A stretch of 64,000 nt of DNA from Hydrurus foetidus (Eukaryota). The stretch is from contig UYFQ01000001.1 of NCBI GenBank assembly GCA_900617105.1, positions 2,046,001 through 2,110,000 on the forward strand. Direction: 5' to 3'. How positions within the stretch are numbered: position 1 is the first letter of the stretch; every line of letters starts with the position of its first letter. A model generated the notes under the pieces. It was not told where the DNA came from and ran no database searches. It saw nothing but the letters and a program-made list of their open reading frames with translations. Positions 2,545-62,884 of this stretch are shown piece after piece. A program made the position numbers and the translations under genes.

Positions 2545-2615
2545 GCCAGGCGCTATCAAGTCAAGCGCTATTGAGTCAAGCGCAGCAAGATCGCTCAACT
2601 AAGCGAGCTTGGATT

Positions 2616-2656
2616 GCTATTAATAAATGAGCTGTTCGCACCCTGATTTATTGGCC
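2616..2656 (+). repeat. 41-bp bipartite-dyad element, copy 1 (degenerate)
   Basis: GCTA-TTAATAAAT-GAGC-TGTTCGC-ACCC-TGATTTATT-GGCC, followed by phased A-tracts to ~2692. Lies between convergent genes. Confidence 0.75.
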
Positions 2657-2694
2657 AAAACACCAAAAAGGCAGTCGAAAATCGCCTTAAAAGG

Positions 2695-9517: not shown

Positions 9518-9556
9518 GCTTCTTTTGGTCAGATTTAAGCATTTTTTAGGCCTATA

Positions 9557-9597
9557 GCCTAACAAACACGGGCGCGAGCAGCTATGAAAATAATAGT
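9557..9597 (-). repeat. 41-bp element, copy 2 (overlaps SDR start codon)
   Basis: + strand GCCT-AACAAACAC-GGGC-GCGAGCA-GCTA-TGAAAATAA-TAGT, with phased T-tracts at 9511-9547. Confidence 0.9.
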
Positions 9598-10402
9598 AAT
9601 AGTAATTACAGGTGCGTCTGACGGCATTGGTGCAGAGATGGCGCGTCAGCTTGCCAAGCGCCACGGCGCTGGAGTTGCGCTGGTATTGGCGGCGCGCAAT
9701 GAGGCACGGCTGGCAGAAGTCGCTGGCCAATGCCAGGCTTTTGGCGCGCAAACCTTGGTGCTTCAAACCGATGTGTCGATCGATACCGCCTGCCGCGCGC
9801 TGATAGCGGCAACGGTGGCGAAATACGGTCAAATCGACGCGTTGATCAATAACGCCGGCATGTCTGCCCAGGCACTGTTTGAAGAAGTCAAAGCGGGCGA
9901 CTTGGCCTGGTACGAGCAACTGATGCGTATCAATTTATGGGGCAGCGTGTGGTGCACCCACGCCGCGCTGCCTTACCTCAAACAAAGCCGCGGCCGCATT
10001 GTGGCGGTGTCTAGCCTTGCCGGGCTGATTGGCGTGCCTGGGCGCACCGCCTACAGTGCCACCAAATTTGCCATGACTGGCTTTTTTGAAGCGCTGCGGG
10101 CCGAGCTAAAAACCGCTGGCGTCAGCGTGACCACCGCTTACCCCGGCGTGGTGGCCACGCAAATTCGCCACAACGGGTTCAATGCGGCGGGCAAAGCGGC
10201 AGGCGCCAGCGGCCTGAAAGAGGACAACGCCATGAGCATTGAAGAATGCGCCCAACTCATCTTGCAAGGCATGGACACACGCCAGCGCGAAGTCGTGATG
10301 ACCGCCAAAGGCAAGCTGGGCCGCTGGCTTAAATTGCTTGCCCCCGCGCGGGTTGAAGCGATGGCGTTGGCGGCGCTTAAAGACGAGGTCAAGCCGTCTT
10401 GA
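9584..10402 (+). CDS. SDR family oxidoreductase
   Basis: ITGASDGIG, NNAG and YSATK motifs. Confidence 0.93.
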   Translation: MKIIVIVITGASDGIGAEMARQLAKRHGAGVALVLAARNEARLAEVAGQCQAFGAQTLVLQTDVSIDTACRALIAATVAKYGQIDALINNAGMSAQALFEEVKAGDLAWYEQLMRINLWGSVWCTHAALPYLKQSRGRIVAVSSLAGLIGVPGRTAYSATKFAMTGFFEALRAELKTAGVSVTTAYPGVVATQIRHNGFNAAGKAAGASGLKEDNAMSIEECAQLILQGMDTRQREVVMTAKGKLGRWLKLLAPARVEAMALAALKDEVKPS

Positions 10403-11001
10403 AAGACCTCGGCTTGCACGGAGCAATGCCGCCATCAGAGTGGGTCATGCGCTGGTCGCACTTGGTTAAAGCGCAAGGCAGCGTGCTGGACGTGGCCTGT
10501 GGTTATGGTCGCCACGCAAGCTGGTTTTATGGCAAAAATCACACACTAGCCCTTGTAGATCAGGCGCAAGCAGCTATTGATTACATAGCGACAATTATTC
10601 CACTTGACGCTGCCAGTGCTCACACCGCCGTGGTGGCCGACATTGAAAATGGCCCCTGGCCGTTTGCGGGCCGTCAGTTCGATGCGGTAGTGGTCACCCA
10701 CTATTTATGGCGACCGTTAGTGCCAACGCTGCTGGCCAACCTGGCGCCGGGCGGCGTGTTGATTTACGAAACTTTTGCGCAGGGCAATGAGACGGTCGGC
10801 AAGCCGTCTCGGGCAGATTTTTTGCTGCGCACAGGCGAGTTGCTTGAGGTCTGCAAAGGTCTTCGCGTGGTGGCTTTTGAAGAAGGTTTCGCCATAGATG
10901 CAGGCGGGACAAACGCCAGATTCGTCCAGCGCATTGCCGCTGTGCGTGAGGCCTTGCAGCCGCTCGAACCCAACGCACCGGCTCGTTATCCACTGGCTTG
11001 A
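10399..11001 (+). CDS. Class I SAM-dependent methyltransferase
   Basis: VLDVACGYGRH motif I, LAPGGVLIYETF. Start uncertain. Confidence 0.85.
   Translation: MKDLGLHGAMPPSEWVMRWSHLVKAQGSVLDVACGYGRHASWFYGKNHTLALVDQAQAAIDYIATIIPLDAASAHTAVVADIENGPWPFAGRQFDAVVVTHYLWRPLVPTLLANLAPGGVLIYETFAQGNETVGKPSRADFLLRTGELLEVCKGLRVVAFEEGFAIDAGGTNARFVQRIAAVREALQPLEPNAPARYPLA
10549..10589 (-). repeat. 41-bp element, copy 3 (inside methyltransferase CDS)
   Basis: GCCC-TTGTAGATC-AGGC-GCAAGCA-GCTA-TTGATTACA-TAGC, read in frame as ALVDQAQAAIDYIA. Confidence 0.85.
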
Positions 11002-16894: not shown

Positions 16895-16931
16895 TTTTTT
16901 TTATGGTGGGGCTCTCACCAGGGCCAAACTT

Positions 16932-16972
16932 GCTACATTATTTATAGCTGCTCGCGCCCGTAAAATTTCGCT
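16932..16972 (+). repeat. 41-bp element, copy 4
   Basis: GCTA-CATTATTTA-TAGC-TGCTCGC-GCCC-GTAAAATTT-CGCT, plus phased tracts to ~17017. Confidence 0.88.
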
Positions 16973-17368
16973 TGCAGCTATTTTTTTACTCAAAGTTGGC
17001 TTATTTAGCCTCTTTTTAGGCCTAACAGCACAAAGCGTCGTGTGCCGTCAGGCCAAGCAGATCGACTCCACACGCTACAGCCACGGGCAGGTGCAGCCGT
17101 GCGGTTGATAATAAGTCGTTGTGCTTACCGAGTACCCTCATTTTTTAACCCGGCAGCCGATGCGCAGCTAAAAGACGCACCTTCGTGACAACATTTGCGT
17201 CGTAAAGCGTTTTTATGTCAAAACTGTCATTTTCGGTGAGCACATCAGTTTTCTAATCACGTTTGTGACGTGTGAGGGCGTTCTTCACACATTTTGCAAT
17301 CCAGACAACCCAAGCTACTCGAGCACGCAAGTTGCGCGAATAAGCCCCTCCTGAACCCAAGGAAAACC

Positions 17369-19696
17369 ATGAAACTCGTCGATTTAAAAAGAAAAAAGTC
17401 TCTCTCATTGTCTGTACTGAGCCTTCTGCTCGGCTCCGTTTACTTAACCTCTTGCGGCGGCGGCAGCGAGACCGCGGCTAGCAGCAGCGCCAACATGAAC
17501 ACAACAGCAGATGCTTCTTCGCCTGCATTTAACTTAAAGGGTTTTACGGAATGCGGCAAGCAAGACGACATACTGGACCTGAAGGTCAAAACGCACGTTG
17601 CTTTTGGCCTTGACAAGGCTGATAGGAAAGATGGGGCTGAGAGCAAGTTTGTTTACCTCTATGCTCAAACAGGCAAATTAAAGCTCTCAGCCGACGTATT
17701 TGGCAACGACCCCATCCCACCGCTGTACAAAAAAGGGTATTGCAAAGTAGTCACTGCTGACAACAACGATGCCGTCGTGCTCAGCGCAGCAATGGCCAAA
17801 ATCAAAGCGCACTTAGAGGGCACGTCAGTGATGACAGCAGAGCAACTGCAAGAGCAAGACGACCGCATCACGCAGACCACCTATACGCTGTCTGAAAATA
17901 AAGGCAATATTACCCAGGCGTTTGCTTTGATAAACGCCTACGAAACCAAGGAAAAAGGCGCATTTTTTATCAATGCCAAAACCAAAGAAGGCTTTCCAAA
18001 CTTTTCGGGGAAAGCAGACAACTTTGGACTTGACCGCGCCGTGTTGGCCATTCAGCAAAGCATTTTTGACTTCGCTTTCACACCTGCCGCGCTGGCAACT
18101 TATCGCGACACGCTGGCCGGGCTGAAATTCAACAGCTCCGATTGGTTCCCGGGCAAGGTGAAAGCCCCAGCTGTGGCCAGCACGGTTTACACCGCCGAAA
18201 TAAACGGTACGGTAGTTAAAGACGTAGGCATCCGCAGCGCTTTCTCTCAGCACTACGCACGTCGCCCCACCGGCTATTACCTGGCCGCTGGTGACATTGC
18301 CAAAATTACCGTGCCTGACTCTATCCCCAAAGATGGCACGTTCAAGATTCGTGTGGGTGCCAATGTGCACGACAAGTACATCAAGAGCACGATTGAGCGA
18401 CCGTTTCGGATCAGCAACCAATTTCCCATCGTGAGTAAAGTCACTGAGATTGCCAACCCTTATGGTGGCGGCATTTACATCGATGTGCCTTACTTGGCGA
18501 CAGCAGGTGCAAGCGTAAAAATTGAAATTCAAAACGTGGTGCCAGCACCGTTTTTCCAGAGCACCGCCTTGAAGAAAACAACACTGGACGATTGGAAAAC
18601 TACGCTGCGCAACCACCCCGCGCCTTGGGCCGACTTCATGAGCGACAAAGTCATGCTCACGGTTCCCACCAAGTGGATCTACGCGTACGACGATCCAGTG
18701 GCGCTCATGAAAGATTGGGACAACCGCATTGACACCATATCGGCCCTGACTGGCAAGCAAAAAGTCAGAAACAACCAGGTGCTTTACGCAATCGTCGACA
18801 CCAGCTTACTTGGCGACGGCTTTGGTATCGGCTACCCCACCGGTAACAACGATTACAAGCCCGGCAGAACGACCAACGGCAACGAGAAGCATTGGTTGTT
18901 AGTTCCGGGTAGCTCTCAACTCAAATTTGGAGCTTCAGAGTTTCACGAGCTTGGCCATGCCGACCTATTTAGCAATTTTGGTGGTGAAGGCGAAGCAAGC
19001 ATTAACCTGCTGTACATCGCAATCAAAAACAACCTGTACAAAGAAAACATCGACGAAGCCCTCGGCGAATCGATGGGCAGGCACAAGGCAATTGGGCGCG
19101 ACGTAGCAGCCGTTAACTGGATGGTGACGCCCAACTTCCGGGCTGGCAATGCGATGGACACCAGCAGTTCTGAAAAAAATGAGGTGCGTTATCAAGAGCG
19201 CGGCTACGCCAAGTATGTTGAGATTGCAGCACTTTTTGGATGGGACAAACTGGAGGCTTTTTGGGCTGAAGAAAACCGGGTGGCAATACCAGGCAAGGAT
19301 CCGTCCACCGAAACCGACAGCAGAATCTTGCGCATGTCGAAGGCAGCTGGCGTAGACCTTACCCCGCTGATTCACTTTTGGGGTGTACAGCCAAATAACC
19401 CGGTAGCGCTCAAAGCTGCAATTACCGCCGCCAACTTGCCGAGTTCTAACTTGATCTACGAGCGATTGGTGCTTTACAAAGGGCTAATCCCGCTGACCAA
19501 CGACGCCTTCAAAATACACGCAGGTGTATTTTTAGACAAACCCATCAAAGATATCAACGGCACAGGCAAGAGCGCTGATTACGGCGAAGGTTGGTACGCC
19601 GCCGCTATCCCTACCTACGGACCGGCGCAAGGAGACGCTGCACAAAAGGCGATGGACAATATCATCAAGACCTACTTCCCCGGCAGTAGACCTTAA
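17369..19696 (+). CDS. M60-like (peptidase M60/enhancin-type) zinc metallopeptidase, lipoprotein
   Basis: Lipobox LTSC, PTGYYLAAGD, NPYGGGIYI, APWADF, HELGH followed by GEGEASINL (gluzincin). Codon usage is AT-richer than the flanks. Confidence 0.85.
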   Translation: MKLVDLKRKKSLSLSVLSLLLGSVYLTSCGGGSETAASSSANMNTTADASSPAFNLKGFTECGKQDDILDLKVKTHVAFGLDKADRKDGAESKFVYLYAQTGKLKLSADVFGNDPIPPLYKKGYCKVVTADNNDAVVLSAAMAKIKAHLEGTSVMTAEQLQEQDDRITQTTYTLSENKGNITQAFALINAYETKEKGAFFINAKTKEGFPNFSGKADNFGLDRAVLAIQQSIFDFAFTPAALATYRDTLAGLKFNSSDWFPGKVKAPAVASTVYTAEINGTVVKDVGIRSAFSQHYARRPTGYYLAAGDIAKITVPDSIPKDGTFKIRVGANVHDKYIKSTIERPFRISNQFPIVSKVTEIANPYGGGIYIDVPYLATAGASVKIEIQNVVPAPFFQSTALKKTTLDDWKTTLRNHPAPWADFMSDKVMLTVPTKWIYAYDDPVALMKDWDNRIDTISALTGKQKVRNNQVLYAIVDTSLLGDGFGIGYPTGNNDYKPGRTTNGNEKHWLLVPGSSQLKFGASEFHELGHADLFSNFGGEGEASINLLYIAIKNNLYKENIDEALGESMGRHKAIGRDVAAVNWMVTPNFRAGNAMDTSSSEKNEVRYQERGYAKYVEIAALFGWDKLEAFWAEENRVAIPGKDPSTETDSRILRMSKAAGVDLTPLIHFWGVQPNNPVALKAAITAANLPSSNLIYERLVLYKGLIPLTNDAFKIHAGVFLDKPIKDINGTGKSADYGEGWYAAAIPTYGPAQGDAAQKAMDNIIKTYFPGSRP

Positions 19697-19718
19697 CGAG
19701 CCGGGTGTTCGGTTATTT

Positions 19719-19759
19719 ACTATAAATTAGATAGCTGCTCGCGCCCGTATTAATTGGGC
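19719..19759 (+). repeat. 41-bp element, copy 5
   Basis: ACTA-TAAATTAGA-TAGC-TGCTCGC-GCCC-GTATTAATT-GGGC, with tracts at 19780/19790/19800/19810. Confidence 0.92.
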
Positions 19760-19847
19760 TACAGCTCGATTCGGCACCCAAAAAGTGCCATTTTGAGCGA
19801 TTTCAACCCAAATCGCCACCAATCCCCATTCATCAATCGCTAGCCAA

Positions 19848-20006
19848 GCGCGGTGATTGGGCCATGCGACCGGGCTTTGGGGTGAAAGGCGCGCGGTAGC
19901 TTTGTCTACGTCAACAAAAAAATGGCCAAGCAAAAGCTTGACCCATTTTTCGTCGTCGCGCGTGATTGCACCCCAAAACCGCAGCGCATGGCCCAGTCGC
20001 CATGCG
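19848..20006. repeat. Long imperfect palindromic element (MITE/REPIN-like), copy A
   Basis: Arms GGTGATTGGGCCATGCG...TTTGGGGTG / CACCCCAAAA...CGCATGGCCCAGTCGCC with an inner AAAAATGGCCAAGC...GCTTGACCCATTTTT stem. Confidence 0.85.
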
Positions 20007-20019
20007 GAGTTGGTAGCAA

Positions 20020-20187
20020 TCAGGGCTTCTTGCTCTCCGCGGCTTGAGCTATTCGTTCTAGTAACTCCTCAACACGCCGACGGTGCGCACGAAGCTCAAA
20101 AATGCCAGATTTACTGACTAGCAACACGAGCCCAACGACGACGAGCAGAGTTTGAATTAGCGAAATAATGAATTCCAAATTAGTCAT
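20020..20187 (-). CDS. Small hypothetical membrane protein (55 aa)
   Basis: MTNLEFIISLIQTLLVVVGLVLLVSKSGIFELRAHRRRVEELLERIAQAAESKKP: one TM helix plus a charged helix, AT-richer DNA. Confidence 0.55.
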   Translation of the reverse strand: MTNLEFIISLIQTLLVVVGLVLLVSKSGIFELRAHRRRVEELLERIAQAAESKKP

Positions 20188-20336
20188 ACAAAAGCCGATG
20201 CAATACAAATCGTTAGGTGACGGTAAAAATGGATTACGGTAGCTGAGTCTAATGTTGAACTCGGCTGGTGGCATTTCCTGGACGCAAATTTAGACTCGTT
20301 TTCGTAACCCAATCCGCACCCATCAACCGCTACTGA

Positions 20337-20497
20337 GCGCGGCGATTGGGCCATGCGACCGGGCTTTGGGGTGAAAGGCGCGCGGTAGCGGTACTGACGA
20401 CCAAGCAAAAAAATGGCCAAGCGACAGCTTGACCCATTTTTCAGCCCCGCGTGTGTTTTCACCCCAAAACCGCACGCGCATGGCGCAGTCGCCTCGT
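20337..20497. repeat. Long imperfect palindromic element, copy B (direct repeat of A)
   Basis: Near-identical left arm GATTGGGCCATGCGACCGGGCTTTGGGGTGAAAGGCGCGCGGTAGC and the same inner stem. Confidence 0.85.
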
Positions 20498-20515: not shown

Positions 20516-20962
20516 TCAAGACTTCCCCGTAGACCCATACCCACCCTCCCCGCGCTCGCTTGCGGGGAAGTCTTGCACCACATTGAACTCAGCTTGCACC
20601 ACAGGCACGATCATCAGTTGAGCGATGCGCTCCATGGGTTCGATGGTGAAGGGCACGTCGCTGCGGTTCCAGGCGCTGACCATTAATTGGCCCTGATAAT
20701 CACTGTCGATCAAGCCCACCAGGTTGCCCAGCACGATGCCGTGCTTGTGACCGAGGCCTGAACGCGGCAGGATGAGCGCAGCGTAGCCAGGGTTGTGCAG
20801 GTAGATGGCGATGCCTGTGGGCACCAGCTGCCAGGCATTGGCGGCCAAGGTTAATGACCCGTCTAAACAAGCCCGCAAGTCCAGCCCCGCACTGCCAGGC
20901 GTAGCGTAGTTAGGCAGGTTGCCTTGCAGGCGCGGATCAATAATTTTGACGTCGATTTTCAT
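20516..20962 (-). CDS. dut: dUTP diphosphatase
   Basis: [22 protein letters not shown] and [10 protein letters not shown] motifs. Confidence 0.97.
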
Positions 20963-22239
20963 TTAACGATTGATGGTTTGTTAATACGGTTGGCAATTTC
21001 TTTGACCAGCTGCCGCGCCAGTGTGAGCTTGCTGGCTCTCGGCATTTCAGTTGCGCCGTGGCTGTCGACCAGCAGCAGCGCATTGTGGTCTTGGCCAAAG
21101 GTGTCGGGGCCGATGTTGCCGACCAGCAGCGGCACGTTTTTACGCAGGCGCTTGGCTTGGGCGTTTTCATGCAGGTCGTGGCTTTCTGCGGCAAAACCTA
21201 CACAAAACAATTTACCGCTGGTGGCGGCGGCTGATTGCGCAACGGTGGCCAAGATGTCCTGGTTCTCAGCAAACGCCAACTGCGGTGGCGAGCCAGAGCC
21301 GTCTTTTTTAATTTTTCGGCTGGCAAATGCTGCGGGCCGCCAGTCGGCCACAGCCGCAGTCGCTATAAATACAGTAGCTGCTTGCGCCCGATTAATAACG
21401 GCTTCAAGCATATTTGATGCTGATTTAACGTCGAATCTTGCAACCCCACGCGGTGTGGGCAAGCTGACTGGCCCAGCGACCAAAGTCACATCAGCGCCCG
21501 CCTCACGCGCAGCGCGTGCAATGGCAAAACCCATCTTGCCGCTTGATAAATTGGTAATGCCGCGCACCGGGTCAATGGCCTCGTAGGTGGGCCCCGCAGT
21601 CACCAGCACGTGCTGCCCGGCCAACACTTTGGGGGTGAAAAAAGAAATGATGTCTGCTAAAAGCTCAGCAGGCTCCAGCATGCGGCCGTCACCCGTTTCG
21701 CCGCAAGCCTGAAAGCCATTGCCCACACCCAGCACCGTTGCCCCGTCGCTTTGCAGTTGCACCAAGTTGCGCTGGGTAGCCGGGTGAGCGTACATTTCGC
21801 GGTTCATGGCGGGGGCCACCAACAGCGGCACGGTGTCAATCGGCCTGGCCAGGCACATCAAACTCAGCAATTCATCAGCCCGGCCGTGCAGCAGCTTGGC
21901 CAGGAAGTCGGCGCTGCAGGGGGCAATCAAAATAGCATCGGCTTCGCGCGACAAATTGATGTGCGCCATGTTGTTGGCTATTTCGCCGGTGGCGCGGCTG
22001 TCCCACTGGCTGGTAAACACCTGGCGGCCAGACAGGGCTTGCATCGTCACGGGCGTGATGAACTGCTCGGCTGCCTCAGTCATTACCACTTGCACCGTCG
22101 CCCCGGCTTTAATCAGCGCCCGGCACAACTCGGCTGCCTTGTAGCAGGCAATCCCGCCTGAAAGCCCCAAAACGATGTGCTTGCCACCCAGTGCCAGCGG
22201 CTCTGCAACATCAATACCAAAATCAAGATCGTTGTTCAT
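20959..22239 (-). CDS. coaBC: Phosphopantothenoylcysteine decarboxylase/ligase
   Basis: [41 protein letters not shown] and GFAAE motifs. Confidence 0.96.
21362..21402 (+). repeat. 41-bp element, copy 6 (inside coaBC)
   Basis: GCTA-TAAATACAG-TAGC-TGCTTGC-GCCC-GATTAATAA-CGGC; the antisense frame encodes [14 protein letters not shown]. Confidence 0.9.
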
Positions 22240-28454: not shown

Positions 28455-29276
28455 ATGCGCCTGTTTACCGACCCGCCAGAAATACGCCATTGGGCGCTAC
28501 AGGCCTTGATTGAGCCTGTTTTAGAAGAAAAAGTAGCCAAAACCCAATTAATATGGGCGCGAGCAGCTACGATATTAATAGCTGAAAAGGCGGATCTGCA
28601 AGCACCAATGGGTCTGCCCGGCTGCCCTGCTCGCCCAGAGCTGTGCGCCCATCTCGATGTTCCCAAACGTTCCCCGTTTACCCCTGCCGGGCTGGCAGCT
28701 TTGTTGCACGCCGTGACGCACATTGAATTCAACGCAATCAATTTGGCCCTTGATGCTATCTGGCGCTTTGCCAACATGCCGCGTGAGTACTACCTGGACT
28801 GGAGCAAAGTGGCGGCCGAGGAAGCGCATCATTTCAGCCTGCTGCGGGCGCACCTGCAGAGCATGGGGCATGACTATGGCGACTTCCCGGCCCACACTGG
28901 TTTGTGGGACATGACCCATAAAACCACTGGCGACGTACTGGCCCGCATGGCGCTGGTGCCGCGCACGCTGGAGGCGCGGGGCCTTGATGCAACGCCGCCC
29001 ATGCAGGCCAAGCTGCGCAAAGTGGGCACCCCCCATGCTTTGCGGGCAGTTGAAATTTTGGACGTTATTTTGCGCGACGAAATTACCCATGTGGCGATTG
29101 GCAACCACTGGTACCGTTACGTGTGCCAGCAGCGCGGGCTAGACCCCGTGGCCCACTATGCGGTGTTGGCCGCCCAGTACAGTGCACCTCGCATCAAGGG
29201 GCCGCTCAACCTCGATGCGCGCCGCCAGGCCGGCTTTGAAGCAGACGAGCTGGATTTGCTAAGTCACAGCGCCTAA
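28455..29276 (+). CDS. Ferritin-like DUF455 protein
   Basis: HAVTHIEFNAINLA, EEAHHF, LEARGLD and DEITHV motifs. Confidence 0.9.
   Translation: MRLFTDPPEIRHWALQALIEPVLEEKVAKTQLIWARAATILIAEKADLQAPMGLPGCPARPELCAHLDVPKRSPFTPAGLAALLHAVTHIEFNAINLALDAIWRFANMPREYYLDWSKVAAEEAHHFSLLRAHLQSMGHDYGDFPAHTGLWDMTHKTTGDVLARMALVPRTLEARGLDATPPMQAKLRKVGTPHALRAVEILDVILRDEITHVAIGNHWYRYVCQQRGLDPVAHYAVLAAQYSAPRIKGPLNLDARRQAGFEADELDLLSHSA
28542..28582 (-). repeat. 41-bp element, copy 7 (inside DUF455 CDS)
   Basis: ACCC-AATTAATAT-GGGC-GCGAGCA-GCTA-CGATATTAA-TAGC, encoding TQLIWARAATILIA. Confidence 0.9.
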
Positions 29277-33663: not shown

Positions 33664-33679
33664 TGATACCGTCAATTTC

Positions 33680-33720
33680 ACTATTAATTTTATAGCTGCT
33701 CGCGCCTGTACTTATTGGGC
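33680..33720 (+). repeat. 41-bp element, copy 8
   Basis: ACTA-TTAATTTTA-TAGC-TGCTCGC-GCCT-GTACTTATT-GGGC, with A-tracts at 33730/33741/33751. Confidence 0.92.
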
Positions 33721-33778
33721 TGCAGCACTAAAACCGCCCGAAAAATCGCCAAAAACGTTCTGTCAAACCAAAAATACG

Positions 33779-35639: not shown

Positions 35640-36572
35640 ATGAACAACTTTTTGAAAAATCTCTTTTCAACCAGCAAAACGCCGCAGAAGTTTGCATCCA
35701 GCAGCCTGAACCACTCCCGCGCAGATTTGGCGTCGGTTCAAAACGGCTCTGAAAACGCCACCCGCCAGCAACTGATCCAAACCCTGCACCGCGACCTGAT
35801 GCGCAAACACGGCATTCCGCTGGAGTGGACGGCCTGCCACACCCAGGTGATGGTGAGCCGAACCAAGGGCACCGGCATGGCGGTGGTGCTGGTCGTCAGG
35901 CACTGGGACGAGCGGATGATGAACCACACGTTTGCGCTGCAGCGCGCACTCGCGGCTGACATTATTGCGTTTGAACCCGCAGCTGAGCAGTGGCTGCAAG
36001 GCATTACCTGGCGCCTGGAAGTGGCCAGCACCTGCCCGCACATCAGCTTGCCCGAAAAGAGCTTTTGGAACAACCAGTACGCGTCTGCCCCTACGGCACA
36101 GGCAATGGCTGAGAAAAAAGCCGAGCTGGCGGCTGTCAAAGCCGAGCTGGCTGCCAACCACTCGGCAGCCAACGCCAACCGGGGGCAACTGGCTAATATG
36201 CAAGCTGACCTGGCGATTCGCACATCGCAGCTGGCTGAACGCAGCCTGGAGCTGGCTGAAGTCAAGCGCGAACTGGCCATGGCGCGGGCCAACCGCCCCG
36301 CTACACCGCCACCTTCGCTTGCGGCCGCATCTACATCTGCACCTGCGCCACAAAGAACTGAATTCATGCGGCACAAAGCCGGCGCCAGTTTTGCACCTGT
36401 TGCAGCCGCCGCTCTTGAGGTCGAAGCACCCGATGACTCGCAGGCCATGCAAGACCTCGACCGCCTGTTTGCAATTCGAGACACCGCGCTGCGCCAGCCG
36501 GCCACAGGCGGCACGCCGTCGGCGCCACCAGCAGGCTATGAAGCGACCCAACCGTCGCCACTGCGGGTCTGA
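35640..36572 (+). CDS. Hypothetical protein with central coiled coil
   Basis: Long ORF with heptad-rich ELAAVKAELAA/ELAEVKRELAM segments. Confidence 0.65.
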   Translation: MNNFLKNLFSTSKTPQKFASSSLNHSRADLASVQNGSENATRQQLIQTLHRDLMRKHGIPLEWTACHTQVMVSRTKGTGMAVVLVVRHWDERMMNHTFALQRALAADIIAFEPAAEQWLQGITWRLEVASTCPHISLPEKSFWNNQYASAPTAQAMAEKKAELAAVKAELAANHSAANANRGQLANMQADLAIRTSQLAERSLELAEVKRELAMARANRPATPPPSLAAASTSAPAPQRTEFMRHKAGASFAPVAAAALEVEAPDDSQAMQDLDRLFAIRDTALRQPATGGTPSAPPAGYEATQPSPLRV

Positions 36573-36575
36573 ACC

Positions 36576-36616
36576 GCTACTAAATAAATAGCTGCTTGCG
36601 CCCGATTTAATTGGGC
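36576..36616 (+). repeat. 41-bp element, copy 9
   Basis: GCTA-CTAAATAAA-TAGC-TGCTTGC-GCCC-GATTTAATT-GGGC; fills most of a 59-bp convergent gap. Confidence 0.92.
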
Positions 36617-36631
36617 TACACGGCTATTTAT

Positions 36632-37300
36632 TTACTTTTTCGGCAGCACGTGCAGCAAAAACGCCTGCACATCAAGCACTTCTTCAGGGCACACCGAGTG
36701 GGCCATGCGGTACTCGTGCCAATCGACCGAGTAGCCCATGCTGGTCAGAGCATTGCGTGACTCCACAGCCCTAGGCAATGCGACCACCTCGTCTTGCGTG
36801 CCATGCGCCAAAAATATCGGCGTAGCCAGGCTGGCAGCGGTGCGTTCAGCGGCGGCAAGGTCTGCCAGCGGCAAATAGCCCGACATGCCGATCACGCCAG
36901 CCAACGCCTCAGCGTGGCGCAGCCCCACCATCAATGCCATGGCACAACCCTGCGAGAACCCAGCCACCACGATGCTGCTGGCCGGTATGCCGCGTGCTTT
37001 TTCACTGGCAATCAATGCCTCGACTTGCAGCCTGGAGGCACGCAAGCCCGCTTCGTCTTCCCGCCGTACCAAGTCGGCCGTCATGATATCGTACCAGGCG
37101 GGCATTTCATAGCCGCCATTGATCGTGACCGGAATCACCGGTGCGTTCGGGAATAAAAACCGCACCGGGCCAATACTGTCGAGCTCAAGTTGCTCCGCTA
37201 TTGGCAAAAAGTCTCGCCCATCGGCGCCCAGGCCGTGCATGATGATGACGGTCGCTACCGGGTTGGGGCCGGTTTCGGCTTCAATTACTTGTAAGGTCAT
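36632..37300 (-). CDS. Carboxylesterase/phospholipase (alpha/beta hydrolase)
   Basis: MHGLGADG, MPAWYD, GFSQG, HGTQD and HSVC motifs. Confidence 0.92.
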   Translation of the reverse strand: MTLQVIEAETGPNPVATVIIMHGLGADGRDFLPIAEQLELDSIGPVRFLFPNAPVIPVTINGGYEMPAWYDIMTADLVRREDEAGLRASRLQVEALIASEKARGIPASSIVVAGFSQGCAMALMVGLRHAEALAGVIGMSGYLPLADLAAAERTAASLATPIFLAHGTQDEVVALPRAVESRNALTSMGYSVDWHEYRMAHSVCPEEVLDVQAFLLHVLPKK

Positions 37301-37901: not shown

Positions 37902-37983
37902 GGCCGCCCACCCCGGCGCAGCCTCGGGGTTTGCCCGGTCAAAAATCAGGCTGGGCGTGCAATATTACAAAAATGTGTTTCAT

Positions 37984-38024
37984 ACGCCCTATTTTTGGGC
38001 GCAAGCAGCTATTAAGTTGGTAGC
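37984..38024 (-). repeat. 41-bp element, copy 10
   Basis: ACGC-CCTATTTTT-GGGC-GCAAGCA-GCTA-TTAAGTTGG-TAGC. Confidence 0.85.
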
Positions 38025-38108
38025 AATTCGGCGTTTTTGCGTTATATTCGAGACACTCGTGTGCAGCACCAAGCGCACGCCCTGTTTTTTGACAAGAGGA
38101 GAGATCTA

Positions 38109-38486: not shown

Positions 38487-38526
38487 ATGCCTGACGCTTG
38501 GTTTTGGCACCCTAAAATCCACATTC

Positions 38527-38567
38527 GCCCAATAAATACGGGCGCTAGCAGCTATTAAATTTATAGT
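38527..38567 (-). repeat. 41-bp element, copy 11
   Basis: GCCC-AATAAATAC-GGGC-GCTAGCA-GCTA-TTAAATTTA-TAGT. Confidence 0.92.
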
Positions 38568-38635
38568 ATGTATCGGGTACGCACGCGTTATGCAGATGCG
38601 CAGGAACTTTTTGGCTAAGTAACCAATCTCCTGCC

Positions 38636-42575: not shown

Positions 42576-42588
42576 CCGGAGCTCTTGC

Positions 42589-42629
42589 GCTATTTAATTT
42601 ATAGCTGCTCGCACACGTATTTGTTGGCC
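42589..42629 (+). repeat. 41-bp element, copy 12
   Basis: GCTA-TTTAATTTA-TAGC-TGCTCGC-ACAC-GTATTTGTT-GGCC. Confidence 0.87.
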
Positions 42630-42655
42630 TAAGGCTTTACTTATGCCTTATTTAT

Positions 42656-45937: not shown

Positions 45938-45963
45938 CGAAACTGCTGCGCAGGCCTTAAATT

Positions 45964-46004
45964 GCTATTTATTCAATAGCTGCTTGCGCCCGTATTTATT
46001 GGGC
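45964..46004 (+). repeat. 41-bp element, copy 13 (closest to consensus)
   Basis: GCTA-TTTATTCAA-TAGC-TGCTTGC-GCCC-GTATTTATT-GGGC, with A-tracts at ~46014/46025/46035. Confidence 0.93.
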
Positions 46005-46039
46005 TACAGCCCTAAAATACCTTTAAAACAGCCTAAAAA

Positions 46040-47002: not shown

Positions 47003-47048
47003 GTATTTAGCTTGAAAAGCGCCTTTTTAAGGCATAAATGTGGCCCTA

Positions 47049-47089
47049 GCCCAATAAATACGGGCGCGAGCAGCTACTAAAATAATAGT
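47049..47089 (-). repeat. 41-bp element, copy 14
   Basis: GCCC-AATAAATAC-GGGC-GCGAGCA-GCTA-CTAAAATAA-TAGT. Confidence 0.93.
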
Positions 47090-47105
47090 GGATTTAAACG
47101 AGAAG

Positions 47106-49363: not shown

Positions 49364-49957
49364 TCACTTTTCGCACGTGTCACCGCTTGGCAGAGTAGTC
49401 ACGCTTCCACTTCTTGCAGAGTTGTAAGCCAAATATTTGGTGACTCTTATCTTGGTGTTGGCAGTTTTGCTCTCAAGTGCTTGGCTAATTTGCCTTTCTG
49501 CCGGGCTGTCAGCAAAAACATTAACAAAGCAGTTTGCTCCGGCCATTTGGATATCACCAACTTTTTGGACGGCAGTCTTATCAGTGACGTCTACTCCAAG
49601 GGTCATTTGTAATGCCTTGGCTTTTTGGAGTGCTGCCCTGGACTGTGCTGATGTCAAATTTAACGATTTGATATACGCATCTATGTCATCCCGTACGCCG
49701 TTGTTGTCTAAATCGGCGCCTAGCAAACTGTCCGAACGGTCAAGCGGCACGACCTGCCCGCTTTGCTCAAGCTGAGCAATCTGATCTTTGAGGGATAGAT
49801 TAGATGTGCCAGCAGGGCCAGTTGGCTGGCCCACGATATCAACCGCAGACGGTGTGCCAAGCGGCACGAGCGGGGAATCAACTGCACGGCCACAGGCCAC
49901 CAATGCTACGCCGACAGCCGCGCAAAGCGCAAATTGCCGAGCAACTTTACTTTTCAT
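49364..49957 (-). CDS. Uncharacterised lipoprotein B (DxDxNG loop; putative immunity/partner)
   Basis: Lipobox LVAC, GADLDNNGVRDDID, C-terminal Cys. Confidence 0.85.
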   Translation of the reverse strand: MKSKVARQFALCAAVGVALVACGRAVDSPLVPLGTPSAVDIVGQPTGPAGTSNLSLKDQIAQLEQSGQVVPLDRSDSLLGADLDNNGVRDDIDAYIKSLNLTSAQSRAALQKAKALQMTLGVDVTDKTAVQKVGDIQMAGANCFVNVFADSPAERQISQALESKTANTKIRVTKYLAYNSARSGSVTTLPSGDTCEK

Positions 49958-50408
49958 CTAAAAAGTCAGCCATCAAAGTCAACTAATGGGTCGCTGATGT
50001 TTACTTTTCGCACGTGTCACCGCTTGGCAGAGTAGTCACGCTTCCACTGCTTGCAGAGTTGTAAGCCAAATATTTGGTGACTCTTATCTTGGTGTTGGCA
50101 GTTTTGCTCTCAAGTGCTTGGCTAATTTGCCTTTCTGCCGGGCTGTCAGCAAAAACATTAACAAAGCAGTTTGCTCCGGCCATTTGGATATCACCAACTT
50201 TTTGGACGGCAGTCTTATCAGTGACGTCTACTCCAAGGGTCATTTGTAATGCCTTGGCTTTTTGAAGTGCTGCTCTGGACTGTGGCGATGTCAAATTTAA
50301 CGATTTGATATACGAATCTATGTCATCCCGTACGCCGTTGTTGTCTAAATCGGCGCCCAGCAAACTGTCCGAACGGTCAAGCGGCACGACCTGCCCACTT
50401 TGCTCAAG
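49367..50408. repeat. 405-bp direct duplication (49367-49771 and 50004-50408)
   Basis: Manual alignment shows no gaps and about 8 substitutions. Confidence 0.95.
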
Positions 50409-53463: not shown

Positions 53464-54225
53464 TTAAATAACTTTGGCTTCGTTTTTAAGCTTGTCGACC
53501 AGCGCGGCAACATCGGCTACTTTGATGCCGGCGCTGCGCTTGGGCGGCTCGTTCACGCTCAGGGTTTTGATGCGCGGCTTGACGTCAACACCCAAGTCTT
53601 CAGGCTTGAAGTTATCGAGTTGCTTTTTCTTGGCCTTCATGATGTTGGGCAGCGTGACATAACGCGGCTCGTTCAAGCGCAGGTCGGTGGTGATGATGGC
53701 GGGTAGGCTCAGGGCCAGCGTCTCCAGGCCTCCGTCAACTTCGCGTGTGACGTTCACCCTCTTCACCCCGTTATCGTCCACCACTTCGACCTTGAAGGCA
53801 AACGTAGCTTGCGGCCAGCCGAGCAGCGCGGCGAGCATTTGGCCGGTTTGGTTGCAGTCGTCGTCAATGGCTTGTTTGCCCAAAATAACGAGCTGTGGTT
53901 GTTCTTTATCAACCAGCGCTTTGAGCAGCTTGGCAACGGCCAGCGGCTGCAGTTCTTCATTGGTTTCCACCAGAATTGCGCGGTCAGCACCAATCGCCAT
54001 GGCCGTGCGCAGCGTCTCCTGGCACTGCAGAACGCCGCAGCTTACTGCTATAACTTCAGTAGCTACGCCTTTTTCTTTCAAGCGGGTGGCCTCTTCAATC
54101 GCGATTTCGTCAAACGGGTTCATGCTCATTTTGACGTTGGCAATGTCGACACCAGTGCCGTCAGATTTAACACGGACTTTGACGTTGTAGTCGACTACAC
54201 GTTTTACGGGTACCAAAACCTTCAT
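53464..54225 (-). CDS. etfB: Electron transfer flavoprotein beta subunit
   Basis: [27 protein letters not shown] and LRLNEPRY motifs. Confidence 0.97.
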
Positions 54226-58733: not shown

Positions 58734-59726
58734 TTGAAAGTCAGCAGTCCCGCCACCTATCTTCAAACCCGCTTTCACGCCTGGTTTGAAAACCGCCTGC
58801 CGCTCAGCGACCACATCACACTTACCCAGCGCACGGTGTACATCTTGCCTACCCGGCCAGGCTGGATGCTGGGGCTAACACTGCTGGTGCTGTTGGTGGC
58901 GTCGATCAACTACCAGCTTAATTTAGGCTACCTGTTGACTTTTTTACTGGCCGGCAGCGCCGTGGTCGGCATGCATGTATGCCACGGCACGCTGCGTGGG
59001 TTGTCATTAAATTTAATAGCGCCTGGCGCCCAATTTGTCGGGGCTTCGGCCGCTTTTGATGTCAAGCTGATCAACGCTGCAAAAAGCGTGCGCTACGGCA
59101 TTGGCATGGCGGTGATGACGCCACAGCCGCATTGGTCTTGGGCAGATGTGCCCGCAGGCGGCAGCGCCAACGTGCAGGTGGCCTTCACGCCCGAGCGGCG
59201 CGGGCTGCACCGCATTCCCACGCTCACGGCTGAGACGCGGTTTCCGCTAGGCACCTTCAGGGTGTGGACCGTATGGCGCCCCGCCGCCAGTGTGCTGGTG
59301 TACCCCGCTCCCGAATCAATGCCGCCGCCTTTGCCCGCTGGCGAGCCCAAAGCAGGCGGTGCCGCCAACGCCAGCAAAGCGCAAAACACGGGCGAGTTCG
59401 ACGGCGTTCGCGGTTACCGCCGAGGCGACCCAGTCAAGCTGGTGGTTTGGAAAAAAGCCGCGAAAGCTGACGAGAATTCACTCAGCGAAAGCGCTGGCCT
59501 GGTGGTGCGCGACACCCAGCAAGCGCAGCGCCACGAGCTGTGGCTTGACTTTGCCCAAGCAGGCAGCGGTGGGCTTGAAGCCAAGTTGTCGCGCCTGTGT
59601 GCCTGGGTGCTGCAAAGCGACAAACTCGCGCTTGATTACGGTTTGCGCCTGCCCGCGCGCGAGATCAAACCCGCCAGTGGCGAAGCACATAAACGCCAAT
59701 GCCTGGAGGCGCTGGCTTTATGTTGA
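58734..59726 (+). CDS. DUF58 domain protein
   Basis: VYILPT, FPLG, LVYPAPE, GVRGYRRGD..VWK; follows moxR. Confidence 0.9.
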   Translation: MKVSSPATYLQTRFHAWFENRLPLSDHITLTQRTVYILPTRPGWMLGLTLLVLLVASINYQLNLGYLLTFLLAGSAVVGMHVCHGTLRGLSLNLIAPGAQFVGASAAFDVKLINAAKSVRYGIGMAVMTPQPHWSWADVPAGGSANVQVAFTPERRGLHRIPTLTAETRFPLGTFRVWTVWRPAASVLVYPAPESMPPPLPAGEPKAGGAANASKAQNTGEFDGVRGYRRGDPVKLVVWKKAAKADENSLSESAGLVVRDTQQAQRHELWLDFAQAGSGGLEAKLSRLCAWVLQSDKLALDYGLRLPAREIKPASGEAHKRQCLEALALC

Positions 59727-61759: not shown

Positions 61760-62884
61760 ATGCCTGCAAAACTGCCCTTATTCAAGTTTTTATCTACTAT
61801 TATTTTAGTAGCTGCTTGCGCCCGTATCTCTTGGGCTGCAGACCTAAATGATACTAAAAAAGCGGCTTTAAACGGCGCTCCAGCTGCAGGGCAGCCCCCC
61901 GCCAGTCATTCCAGTCATTCCAATTATTCCAACCGCCCAGAAGTCATGCAGTTTGCCGACGACCTGGCCGCCAGGCGCGACCTGGACCCCACCTGGGTTC
62001 GCCAGGCCATCGGCCAAGCCAGGTATAGCGCTACGGTGGCGCGCCTGATGCAACCCGCCCCCAAACCTTTCGTTAAAAACTGGCGCGTGTACCGCAGTCG
62101 CTTTATTGACCCGGTGCGCATAGCGGCTGGCGTGAAGTTTTGGCAAACCAACGCGGCTACGCTGCAGCGCGCTGAAAAAGAATACGGCGTGCCAATTGAC
62201 ATCATCGTCGGCATCATTGGTGTCGAAACCATTTACGGCCGCGACACCGGCAGCTTTCGCGTGATGGACGCCATCACCACGCTGGCGTTCGACTTTCCCA
62301 GCAGCCACCCGCGCGCCAAAGAACGCAGCGAGTTTTTCAAAGGCGAGGTAGAGCAATTTTTAAGCATGCAAAGCCGCCGGGGCGCCGACCCGTTTGAGCC
62401 GCGCGGCAGCTTTGCAGGCGCCATGGGTATGCCGCAGTTCATGCCGTCCAGCTGGGTGAAATACGCGGTCGATTTTGATGGCGACGGCAACATCGATTTG
62501 TGGAACAGCCCCGCAGATGTCATTGGCTCGGTGGCCAATTACTTCAAGGCCTTTAACTGGCAACCCGGCATGCCCACGCATTACCCGGTGAGCTTTGACA
62601 AAACCAGGCTAGACATGGACGCGCTCATGGCGCCCGACATACTGCCCACCTTCAGCGTGGCCAGCTTTACCGCCAAAGGCGCAGTGCTAGACGCGGCGGG
62701 CGCAGCGCACACCGGCCCGCTGGCGCTGATTGAACTGCTCAACGGCCCAGATGCGCCGCAGTACGTGGCGGGCACCGACAATTTTTACGCCATTACCCGC
62801 TACAACTGGAGCAGTTACTACGCCATGTCGGTGATTGAGCTGGGGCGGGAAGTGGCGTTGAAAATGGCCGAGCGGGGGCGGTAG
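61760..62884 (+). CDS. mltB: Lytic murein transglycosylase B
   Basis: GVETIYG, GSFAGAMGMPQFMPSS, DFDGDG and ITRYN motifs. Confidence 0.93.
   Translation: MPAKLPLFKFLSTIILVAACARISWAADLNDTKKAALNGAPAAGQPPASHSSHSNYSNRPEVMQFADDLAARRDLDPTWVRQAIGQARYSATVARLMQPAPKPFVKNWRVYRSRFIDPVRIAAGVKFWQTNAATLQRAEKEYGVPIDIIVGIIGVETIYGRDTGSFRVMDAITTLAFDFPSSHPRAKERSEFFKGEVEQFLSMQSRRGADPFEPRGSFAGAMGMPQFMPSSWVKYAVDFDGDGNIDLWNSPADVIGSVANYFKAFNWQPGMPTHYPVSFDKTRLDMDALMAPDILPTFSVASFTAKGAVLDAAGAAHTGPLALIELLNGPDAPQYVAGTDNFYAITRYNWSSYYAMSVIELGREVALKMAERGR
61796..61836 (+). repeat. 41-bp element, copy 15 (inside the mltB signal-peptide region)
   Basis: ACTA-TTATTTTAG-TAGC-TGCTTGC-GCCC-GTATCTCTT-GGGC, encoding TIILVAACARISWA, with phased tracts to ~61872. 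Confidence 0.9.

What the first reader, a model, noticed from the sequence alone, without database searches (positions are those of the whole stretch)
21362..21430. The element overwrites coding sequence of essential coaBC without an apparent indel
Seen: a near-consensus copy lies in coaBC and encodes ...[31 protein letters not shown], with AT-rich codons (GTT ATT AAT, ACT GTA TTT ATA) unusual for this genome. From my recollection of E. coli CoaBC (DVMTALEMEAAVNASVQQQNIFIGCAAVADY), the segment aligns without gaps, so the motif replaced codons rather than being inserted. This differs from Rickettsia palindromic elements, which add residues. It resembles how DNA-uptake sequences or HIP1 accumulate in genes, but for a much longer 41-bp site. 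Inference: there is strong selection or a directed conversion mechanism that creates sites at some cost to the protein.
Basis: partly seen in the sequence, partly recalled or inferred. Interest (0 to 1): 0.85.

Follow-up and report, generated by a model that had tools for sequence, protein, structure and literature searches.

The report
Genome-wide DNA motif rewrites essential enzymes
A 70-letter DNA motif found hundreds of times per genome in one group of water and soil bacteria sits inside the essential gene coaBC without changing the gene's length and lengthens loops in other enzymes; it is likely a docking site for an unknown DNA-binding protein, apparently lost several times.

Summary
A 63-bit copy of a fixed-length site of about 70 bp (dyad GCTAY-N7-RTAGC plus a one-sided, helically phased arm) fills coaBC codons 271-294 in this Polaromonas. 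None of 95 close orthologues has a gap there. The copy was not pasted in as a block. The peptide keeps CoaB homology, relatives show every partial state, and both codons and a few residues were tuned (63 of 67 attainable bits; best of 50,000 synonymous resamplings 46). The site is present in 32 of 46 motif-rich genomes and 0 of 37 motif-poor ones. The family (90-730 cores per genome) is confined to one Comamonadaceae clade, evenly spaced, and decayed genome-wide in several nested lineages. Fragments were listed as unexplained motif pairs by Tong et al. 2017. Best reading: a docking site for an unidentified chromosome-organising protein (0.5). Rival: a DNA-uptake signal (0.3). No tested candidate factor tracked the motif. 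The scan's notes showed no earlier report of this element.

The parts
20959..22239 (-). coaBC, host gene; the site covers codons 271-294 of the CoaB domain, antisense to the element
21358..21427 (+). whole ~70-bp site, 63.0 bits
21362..21378 (+). dyad core GCTAY-N7-RTAGC with A/T-rich spacer; encodes A288-T-V-F-I-A293 on the other strand
21379..21390 (+). GC-rich tail box (matrix positions 17-28); encodes the R-A-Q-A stretch on the other strand
21391..21398 (+). A/T tract (positions 29-36)
21399..21409 (+). GGGC-type box (positions 37-47)
21410..21427 (+). distal phased A/T tracts (positions 48-65)
2612..2681 (+). other copy, 28 bits, intergenic after parC
9532..9601 (-). other copy, 58 bits, overlapping the start of a short-chain dehydrogenase gene
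10524..10593 (-). other copy, 58 bits, inside a methyltransferase gene, same reading frame as in coaBC
16928..16997 (+). other copy, 54 bits, intergenic
19715..19784 (+). other copy, 67 bits, intergenic
28517..28586 (-). other copy, 59 bits, intergenic
33676..33745 (+). other copy, 54 bits, between convergent genes
36572..36641 (+). other copy, 63 bits, between convergent genes
37959..38028 (-). other copy, 42 bits, intergenic
38502..38571 (-). other copy, 48 bits, upstream of grpE
42585..42654 (+). other copy, 43 bits, after dnaJ
45960..46029 (+). other copy, 75 bits, between convergent genes
47024..47093 (-). other copy, 64 bits, intergenic
59000..59069 (+). other copy, 27 bits, inside a gene
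61792..61861 (+). other copy, 72 bits, intergenic
54047..54063 (+). core only, inside etfB; below the whole-site threshold, status unclear

Best explanation
The coaBC copy is one of hundreds of fixed-length ~70-bp sites spread evenly over the chromosomes of one Comamonadaceae clade, and it is likely a docking site for an unidentified protein that would bind the dyad and bend or wrap the phased arm to organise the chromosome. Shown: architecture, spacing, clade limits, no indel in coaBC, codon and residue tuning, and genome-wide decay in nested lineages. Inferred: (1) recognition is on double-stranded DNA. (2) Sites are favoured one by one, so in a rigid protein segment such as this CoaB stretch a site builds up by base substitutions, synonymous where possible and with a few residue changes, while in surface loops (DapE, probably GluQ) it is housed by in-frame extension. 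(3) When the trans-acting factor or its specificity is lost, all sites decay, intergenic copies are deleted and the loops shrink. The chromosome-organising role is the least tested step.
For: Fixed 70-bp geometry with a 10.5-11 bp A/T period. No base-pair covariation in 149 sites. Copies are old and unalike: at most 71% identity among 55 sites, with 49 distinct spacers. Spacing is more even than a uniform null (CV 0.77; P 0.003 for 100 cores; P 0.0008 for 140 sites). Both strands are used along the chromosome (64 forward, 82 reverse; first 100 of 146 places seen). Sites favour convergent gaps (16 of 30) over divergent promoter gaps (5 of 54), unlike operators. coaBC site: 63.0 of 66.9 attainable bits against a synonymous null of mean 7.3, max 45.8; partial modules in relatives. 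Coupling to genome state: 32 of 46 versus 0 of 37; flanks hold 82 sites in 682 kb versus 0 in 293 kb; G367 has 8 sites in 0.8 Mb versus 140 in 1.0 Mb of G362. DapE loop: 12 of 13 versus 0 of 10. Remnants in motif-poor genomes point to loss.
Against: No binding protein was found. ComEC, ComP-like pilin, Y1 transposase, H-NS, LysR regulators, ParB, HU/IHF and GyrA residues did not track motif abundance, and a gene-loss comparison over 724 kb gave no candidate that I recognised. Lineages that lost the sites exist as full-size genomes, so the role is dispensable. Only 5 well-supported independent contrasts exist for the coaBC coupling; none goes the wrong way, but the sign test gives p 0.125. Even spacing, coding copies in permissive frames and decay after loss fit an uptake signal equally well. 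The spacing null ignores gene structure. The order of substitutions in coaBC was not reconstructed. 15 of 34 coding copies have gaps against a motif-poor relative, so substitution is not the only route.
Confidence: 0.5

Rival explanations
1. The site is a long DNA-uptake signal. Fragments that carry better sites would be taken up and recombined more often, so sites would accumulate by molecular drive wherever tolerated, including in coaBC.
For: The behaviour matches uptake sequences: they sit in poorly conserved genes and residues and shift peptide use (PMC2817400, abstract); here site identity is 0.48 versus 0.84 gene-wide, lower in 32 of 34 coding copies. Sites are scarce in gene islands (3 seen, 8.8 expected). 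The Haemophilus signal also has bent A/T tracts (PMC7811141, passages). Acidovorax temperans, A. facilis and Verminephrobacter eiseniae are naturally transformable, the last with signs of selective binding (PMC4212676, passages). ComEC was found in 63 of 64 genomes.
Against: ComEC and ComP-like pilins persist in motif-poor genomes, and the pilin family was not found in two motif-rich ones. V. eiseniae shows none of this element's pairs in the Tong screen; its single listed pair is unrelated. Known signals are 9-11 bp cores at about one per kb (recalled); this one is a 70-bp, 53-bit dyad site at one per 4-7 kb.
Confidence: 0.3
2. The element is a mobile or converting repeat (RPE-, MITE- or REPIN-like) that copies itself as a block. 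The coaBC copy would be an overwrite by directed conversion, and loop copies would be insertions.
For: In-frame length differences of about one element in DapE (20 aa) and GluQ (30 aa) between G362 and G367. Several intergenic copies are missing as 80-90 bp blocks in G367. Three inverted tail-to-tail pairs in G362. Neisseria signals are argued to arise by recombination (PMC2397512, section 9).
Against: The coaBC peptide keeps CoaB homology that a pasted copy would lack (9.7 of 23 versus at most 5.8; 66 of 148 copies would bring a stop codon). No near-identical copies exist within a genome, there is no hairpin covariation, and block ends are ragged. The DapE loop is shared across genera and short in nested motif-poor lineages, which reads as old gain and repeated loss. 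No recurring neighbour gene at 119 viral-contig sites (largest protein cluster 8 loci). A Y1 transposase is present in both states (5 of 5).
Confidence: 0.12
3. The site is the operator of a global transcription regulator (the dyad fits the T-N11-A rule of LysR-type regulators, recalled), or a protein-dependent terminator at gene ends.
For: Dyad plus bent arm of 50-70 bp resembles LysR footprints (recalled). Many copies lie within about 100 bp of a stop codon.
Against: Copies avoid divergent promoter gaps (5 of 54) and 19 of 71 lie inside genes, in both orientations. All 6 LysR proteins shared by two motif-rich small genomes have 74-89% identical orthologues in a motif-poor one (one of the rich genomes is 91% complete).
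Confidence: 0.06
4. The coaBC match is a chance product of the conserved peptide and codon bias.
For: The A-x-x-F-[IV]-A frame is partly pre-fitted; some motif-poor genomes keep a peptide able to reach 43-54 bits.
Against: 0 of 50,000 synonymous resamplings reach the score. Genomes with a similar peptide but few sites score at null level, and 0 of 37 motif-poor genomes have the site.
Confidence: 0.01

Closest known systems
Unexplained spaced motif pairs of Tong, Schliekelman and Mrazek 2017 (PMC5217627; abstract, section 13 and supplement rows seen)
   Same: Very probably fragments of the same element: GCTAT_ATAGC at distance 7 in Acidovorax ebreus and Rhodoferax ferrireducens, related pairs in Polaromonas naphthalenivorans and Variovorax paradoxus, and ATAGCT(N)22CAAAAG with 125 copies, 18 in genes; frequent between convergent genes.
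   Different: In the parts I saw they are separate pentamer pairs with no function. I saw no 70-bp architecture, clade limits, losses or effect on proteins there.
DNA uptake sequences: Neisseriaceae DUS, Pasteurellaceae USS (PMC2817400 abstract; PMC2397512 section 9; PMC7811141 passages)
   Same: Hundreds of dispersed copies, many in coding DNA at permissive positions, with preferred reading frames and recurring peptides; A/T tracts beside a G/C core (USS).
   Different: About 70 bp with a spaced dyad, lower density, loop extensions in enzymes; uptake untested; the competence genes tested do not track it.
Rickettsia palindromic elements (recalled, not read)
   Same: Element-derived residues in surface loops of housekeeping enzymes (DapE, probably GluQ).
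   Different: No hairpin covariation, no near-identical copies, variable spacers; the coaBC copy adds no residues.
Chromosome-organising protein sites: matS/MatP, SlmA and Noc sites, parS/ParB, KOPS (recalled)
   Same: Dispersed double-stranded sites held by selection in and between genes.
   Different: Those are 8-16 bp and restricted by region or strand; this site is 70 bp, one-sided, chromosome-wide and not strongly strand-biased. ParB copy number does not track it.
Cyanobacterial HIP1 (recalled)
   Same: Lineage-specific palindrome, evenly spread, inside genes, function unclear.
   Different: HIP1 is an 8-bp word tied to methylation; this is a long asymmetric footprint. Methyltransferases were not tested here.

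Membership tests
DNA uptake sequence (DUS/USS) | raises DNA uptake by competent cells | not testable with these tools
   needs an uptake assay
DNA uptake sequence (DUS/USS) | host has competence machinery | tested here: met
   ComEC in 63 of 64, ComP-like pilin in 60 of 64 genomes; also true of motif-poor genomes
DNA uptake sequence (DUS/USS) | over-represented, evenly spread, in permissive coding positions | tested here: met
DNA uptake sequence (DUS/USS) | short core (9-11 bp) matching a known dialect | tested here: not met
   70-bp site with a 17-bp spaced dyad; known cores 9-11 bp
Rickettsia-type palindromic element / MITE | in-frame insertion adding residues | tested here: inconclusive
   not met in coaBC; loop extension met in DapE, route of gain not shown
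Rickettsia-type palindromic element / MITE | hairpin with covarying stems; closely similar copies or target duplications | tested here: not met
   no covariation; at most 71-76% identity among copies; ragged ends
REP/REPIN with RAYT | tetramer plus hairpin, extragenic, tied to a Y1 transposase | tested here: not met
   no hairpin covariation; 19 of 71 in genes; Y1 protein in 5 of 5 genomes of both states
Known RNA family | Rfam match | tested here: not met
   0 matches at gathering score in the window
LysR-type operator | T-N11-A dyad | tested here: met
   read from the core; the rule itself is recalled
LysR-type operator | promoter location and a cognate regulator that tracks the sites | tested here: not met
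   5 of 54 divergent gaps; no tracking LysR in 4 genomes
Chromosome-organising protein site (matS/SBS/NBS/parS type) | bound in vivo by a dedicated protein | not testable with these tools
   binder not identified
Chromosome-organising protein site (matS/SBS/NBS/parS type) | restriction to a chromosome region or strand | tested here: not met
   sites on both replichores and strands with only a mild skew; origin placed from parB and GC skew
HIP1-type methylation-linked palindrome | cognate DNA methyltransferase co-occurs | not tested
   no methyltransferase family searched

The most novel reading that the evidence does not exclude
A whole bacterial family carries an undescribed 70-bp positioning code, read either by a DNA-wrapping chromosome protein or by a third, unrelated DNA-uptake system. 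It is strong enough to rewrite residues and grow loops in essential enzymes, and it has been switched off independently in several lineages, which should point straight to the gene responsible.
Probability: 0.6. Interest if true: 0.88.

Novelty: new variant of a known kind. Interest (0 to 1): 0.72.

Why it matters
Comamonadaceae are common in fresh water, soil and treatment plants, and many are culturable. A 53-bit site at one per 4-7 kb implies an unknown sequence-specific machine for chromosome organisation or DNA uptake. The repeated losses make it findable by presence/absence profiling. They also give natural replicates for measuring how far a non-coding function can bend essential proteins (residue changes in CoaBC, loops in DapE that shrink once the motif is gone). 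For annotation, recurring A-[ITM]-x-x-[IV]-A peptides and some enzyme loops in this family likely reflect DNA-level rather than protein-level selection.

Tried and rejected
Candidate factors that did not track motif abundance: ComEC; ComP_DUS pilins; Y1 transposase (64, 5 genomes); H-NS (65, 5 genomes); LysR regulators (77, 78, 80, 4 genomes); ParB (81); HU/IHF (82); GyrA residues, where the best column separated only 14 of 15 from 5 of 12; genes flanking coaBC (72); small gene losses in G367 over 724 kb, about 16% of G362. These tests see gene loss, not changed specificity.

Other dead ends. A cluster of cores in motif-poor G179 lies beside a small regulator-like gene and is a different local site. 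Cores kept in several motif-poor genomes proved to be remnants such as the thrS-infC copy, not a regulator's own operator. Viral-contig copies share no neighbour gene. A plasmid search gave only short matches. Rfam gave none. RNA hairpin rejected. VeiPR1 of Verminephrobacter (PMC3975124, passage) and the Bordetella BRE repeat (PMC3110155, passages) were looked at only in passages; no sequence comparison was made. PMC2755013 passages concern CRISPR only. No RNA holder was listed for the stretch, and metagenome contigs laid on it were uninformative. The script stopped before its last tables; supplies those ratios.

Paper searches found no description of the whole element. The library lacks most subscription journals and theses, and bioRxiv supplements were not available.

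Full report
What is there. The window is from a Polaromonas: its CoaBC is 99% identical to that of a record so titled. No whole genome is held; the nearest is G001. coaBC runs 20959-22239 on the minus strand. The core GCTAY-N7-RTAGC lies at 21362-21378, one of 9 exact cores in the window against 0.15 expected. Forty copies from 400 kb of Polaromonas aquatica (G362) define a fixed-length site of about 70 bp: the dyad with an A/T spacer, a GC-rich tail box, an A/T tract, a GGGC box and further A/T tracts, all on one side. The A/T period peaks at 10.5-11 bp. That matrix (53 bits; dyad columns fixed by the seed pattern) scores the coaBC copy, 21358-21427, at 63.0 bits. It finds 17 window sites above 15 bits, and none in 20 simulated windows.

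No indel in coaBC. After removing 16 duplicates from 111 rows, 0 of 95 close orthologues has a gap within three codons of the site; scores run continuously from -62 to 70 bits. Of 45 more orthologues (one a duplicate), only two from other families differ in length there. E. coli CoaB (1u7u) aligns ungapped.

Not chance, and not a pasted block. With the peptide fixed and the window's codon usage, 50,000 resamplings average 7.3 bits (max 45.8); the real codons reach 63.0 of 66.9 attainable. The peptide itself is tuned: its attainable score is 67 against 29 for the next-best stretch of the protein in that orientation and frame, and 1-17 for four motif-free outgroups. Among 75 site-bearing rows residue 276 is Asn in 68, residue 288 Ala in 75 and residue 289 Thr/Ser in 72. 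Among 22 motif-free outgroups these are Gln/Glu in 22, most often His (10), and Asp/Glu in 21 (rows were grouped by site score, so this is partly circular). Yet the stretch keeps 9.7 of 23 identities to those outgroups, while 148 other copies read in the same frame reach at most 5.8 and 66 contain a stop. Relatives carry dyad without arm, arm without dyad and all grades between. Third-position divergence at the site is 0.75 of the gene's in site-bearing rows and 1.39 in site-lacking rows. Amino-acid divergence is 2.2 and 2.6 times the gene's, against 1.2 in 12 motif-free sister genera. I infer piecemeal substitution; the order of changes was not reconstructed.

The site follows a genome-wide state. 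Exact cores number 93-650 in 27 of 37 genomes of the genus and 2-33 in the other 10. 75 of 301 genomes of the family have 90 or more (hand count), and none of 245 genomes of other families in the order exceeds 23. On a coaBC tree without the site columns, all 46 motif-rich genomes fall in one branch (SH-aLRT 100) with 14 motif-poor rows nested inside. The tree needs 7 changes, at least 5 on starred branches, against 28 for shuffled labels (quick tree, no clade test run). The coaBC site exceeds 20 bits in 32 of 46 rich and 0 of 37 poor genomes. Only 5 independent contrasts are well supported; none goes the wrong way, but p is 0.125. Flanks of site-bearing coaBC loci hold 82 other sites in 682 kb, those of site-lacking loci 0 in 293 kb. 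G367, 84% identical to G362 over aligned DNA, has 8 sites in 0.8 Mb against 140 in 1.0 Mb. Its former sites are decayed in place or missing as ragged 80-90 bp blocks (10 of 30 sites could not be placed by the first rule). The thrS-infC copy survives at 26-44 bits in three poor genomes, including one with only 4 cores. These remnants make loss the likely direction. G032 and G378 are unpublished: G032 is one poor genome and was left out; G378 is one of the 245.

Using my own simple gene calls, 19 of 71 cores lie in genes, all in the frame A-x-x-x-x-A; in a larger set 33 of 38 do. Against G367, 19 of 34 aligned coding copies are ungapped and 15 gapped; identity at the site averages 0.48 versus 0.84 gene-wide. 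In DapE the site lies in a loop that has about 3 residues in a solved DapE structure (4ppz). The loop segment is 31-47 aa with a 20-54 bit site in 12 of 13 motif-rich genomes, and 15-21 aa without a site in all 10 poor ones (6 of 30 genomes gave no match, and one locus was not parsed). For GluQ, where G362 has 30 extra residues, the match runs into the extension in 17 of 19 other rich genomes and stops before it in 10 of 10 poor ones (match ranges only, sequences not seen). So the family changes residues in rigid segments and adds them in loops, and the additions are absent where the motif is gone.

What reads it. Paired positions vary independently in 149 sites, and copies within a genome are at most 71-76% alike with nearly all spacers distinct. 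This argues against an RNA or single-strand hairpin and against recent copying, and for a protein on double-stranded DNA (inference). Sites are more evenly spaced than a uniform null (CV 0.77; three shorter stretches alone were not significant). They occur on both strands and replichores with a mild skew. They occupy 16 of 30 convergent, 31 of 128 tandem and 5 of 54 divergent gaps, are scarce in gene islands (3 against 8.8), and occur singly on viral contigs (119 stretches). I commit to a chromosome-organising binder (0.5) over an uptake signal (0.3). The long one-sided wrap-like footprint is unlike known uptake signals; competence genes persist where the motif is gone; and V. eiseniae, with reported selective uptake (PMC4212676, passages), shows none of the element's pairs in the Tong tables. 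None of eight candidate families tracked the motif, so the binder is unidentified and this step is untested.

Prior knowledge. Tong, Schliekelman and Mrazek 2017 (PMC5217627; abstract, section 13 and supplement rows seen) list pieces of this motif in Polaromonas, Acidovorax, Rhodoferax and Variovorax as unexplained pairs and note their place between convergent genes. Nine paper searches found no account of the whole site, its losses or its mark on proteins. It works like DUS/USS accumulation in genes (PMC2817400, abstract; PMC2397512, section 9; PMC7811141, passages) and, in loops, like Rickettsia elements (recalled), but it is not shown to be a member of either. Five look-ups in the scan's notes showed analogous dispersed phased sites in unrelated groups and no report of this element.

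Verdict. Observation confirmed; interpretation partly supported. New variant of a known kind, with fragments already catalogued. Interest 0.72.

Noticed in passing
window 19847-20474: A second repeat family: 54-bp and 69-bp direct repeats about 490 bp apart, with an inverted arm, bracket a small ORF at 20020-20274; REP-like in look.
   Followed up: no
window 49366-50302: Two 300-bp copies, 98% identical, 637 bp apart, in a stretch where my gene caller found no gene.
   Followed up: no
window 17294-19696: An 800-aa lipoprotein-like ORF with M60/enhancin-like peptidase domains.
   Followed up: no
G108:C7:140861-141205 and G208:C1:53837-54181: In two motif-rich genera the ParB N-terminal match is split by 75 bp in frame, about one element length; the element may sit in parB itself. 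Sequence not seen.
   Followed up: no
G362:C1:2768874-2769069, 2904666-2904872, 3001974-3002176: Inverted, tail-to-tail pairs of sites with cores about 195-206 bp apart.
   Followed up: partly
L319, L320, L321 (thrS-infC gap): One copy persists at 26-44 bits in genomes that lost nearly all others, perhaps because it overlaps infC control signals.
   Followed up: partly
G367 versus G362; gyrA loci L409-L435: Motif-poor lineages tend to be richer in G+C than their motif-rich sisters (64.3% versus 61.5% over about 1 Mb; similar trend).
   Followed up: no
G366 (L107, L515): An intermediate genome (185 cores) lacks the coaBC site and the DapE and GluQ extensions; possibly caught in decay.
   Followed up: partly
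L119:9591-10010: Three GCTAC-N7-GTAGC dyads around a small regulator-like gene in a motif-poor genome; probably a local operator, without the arm.
   Followed up: partly
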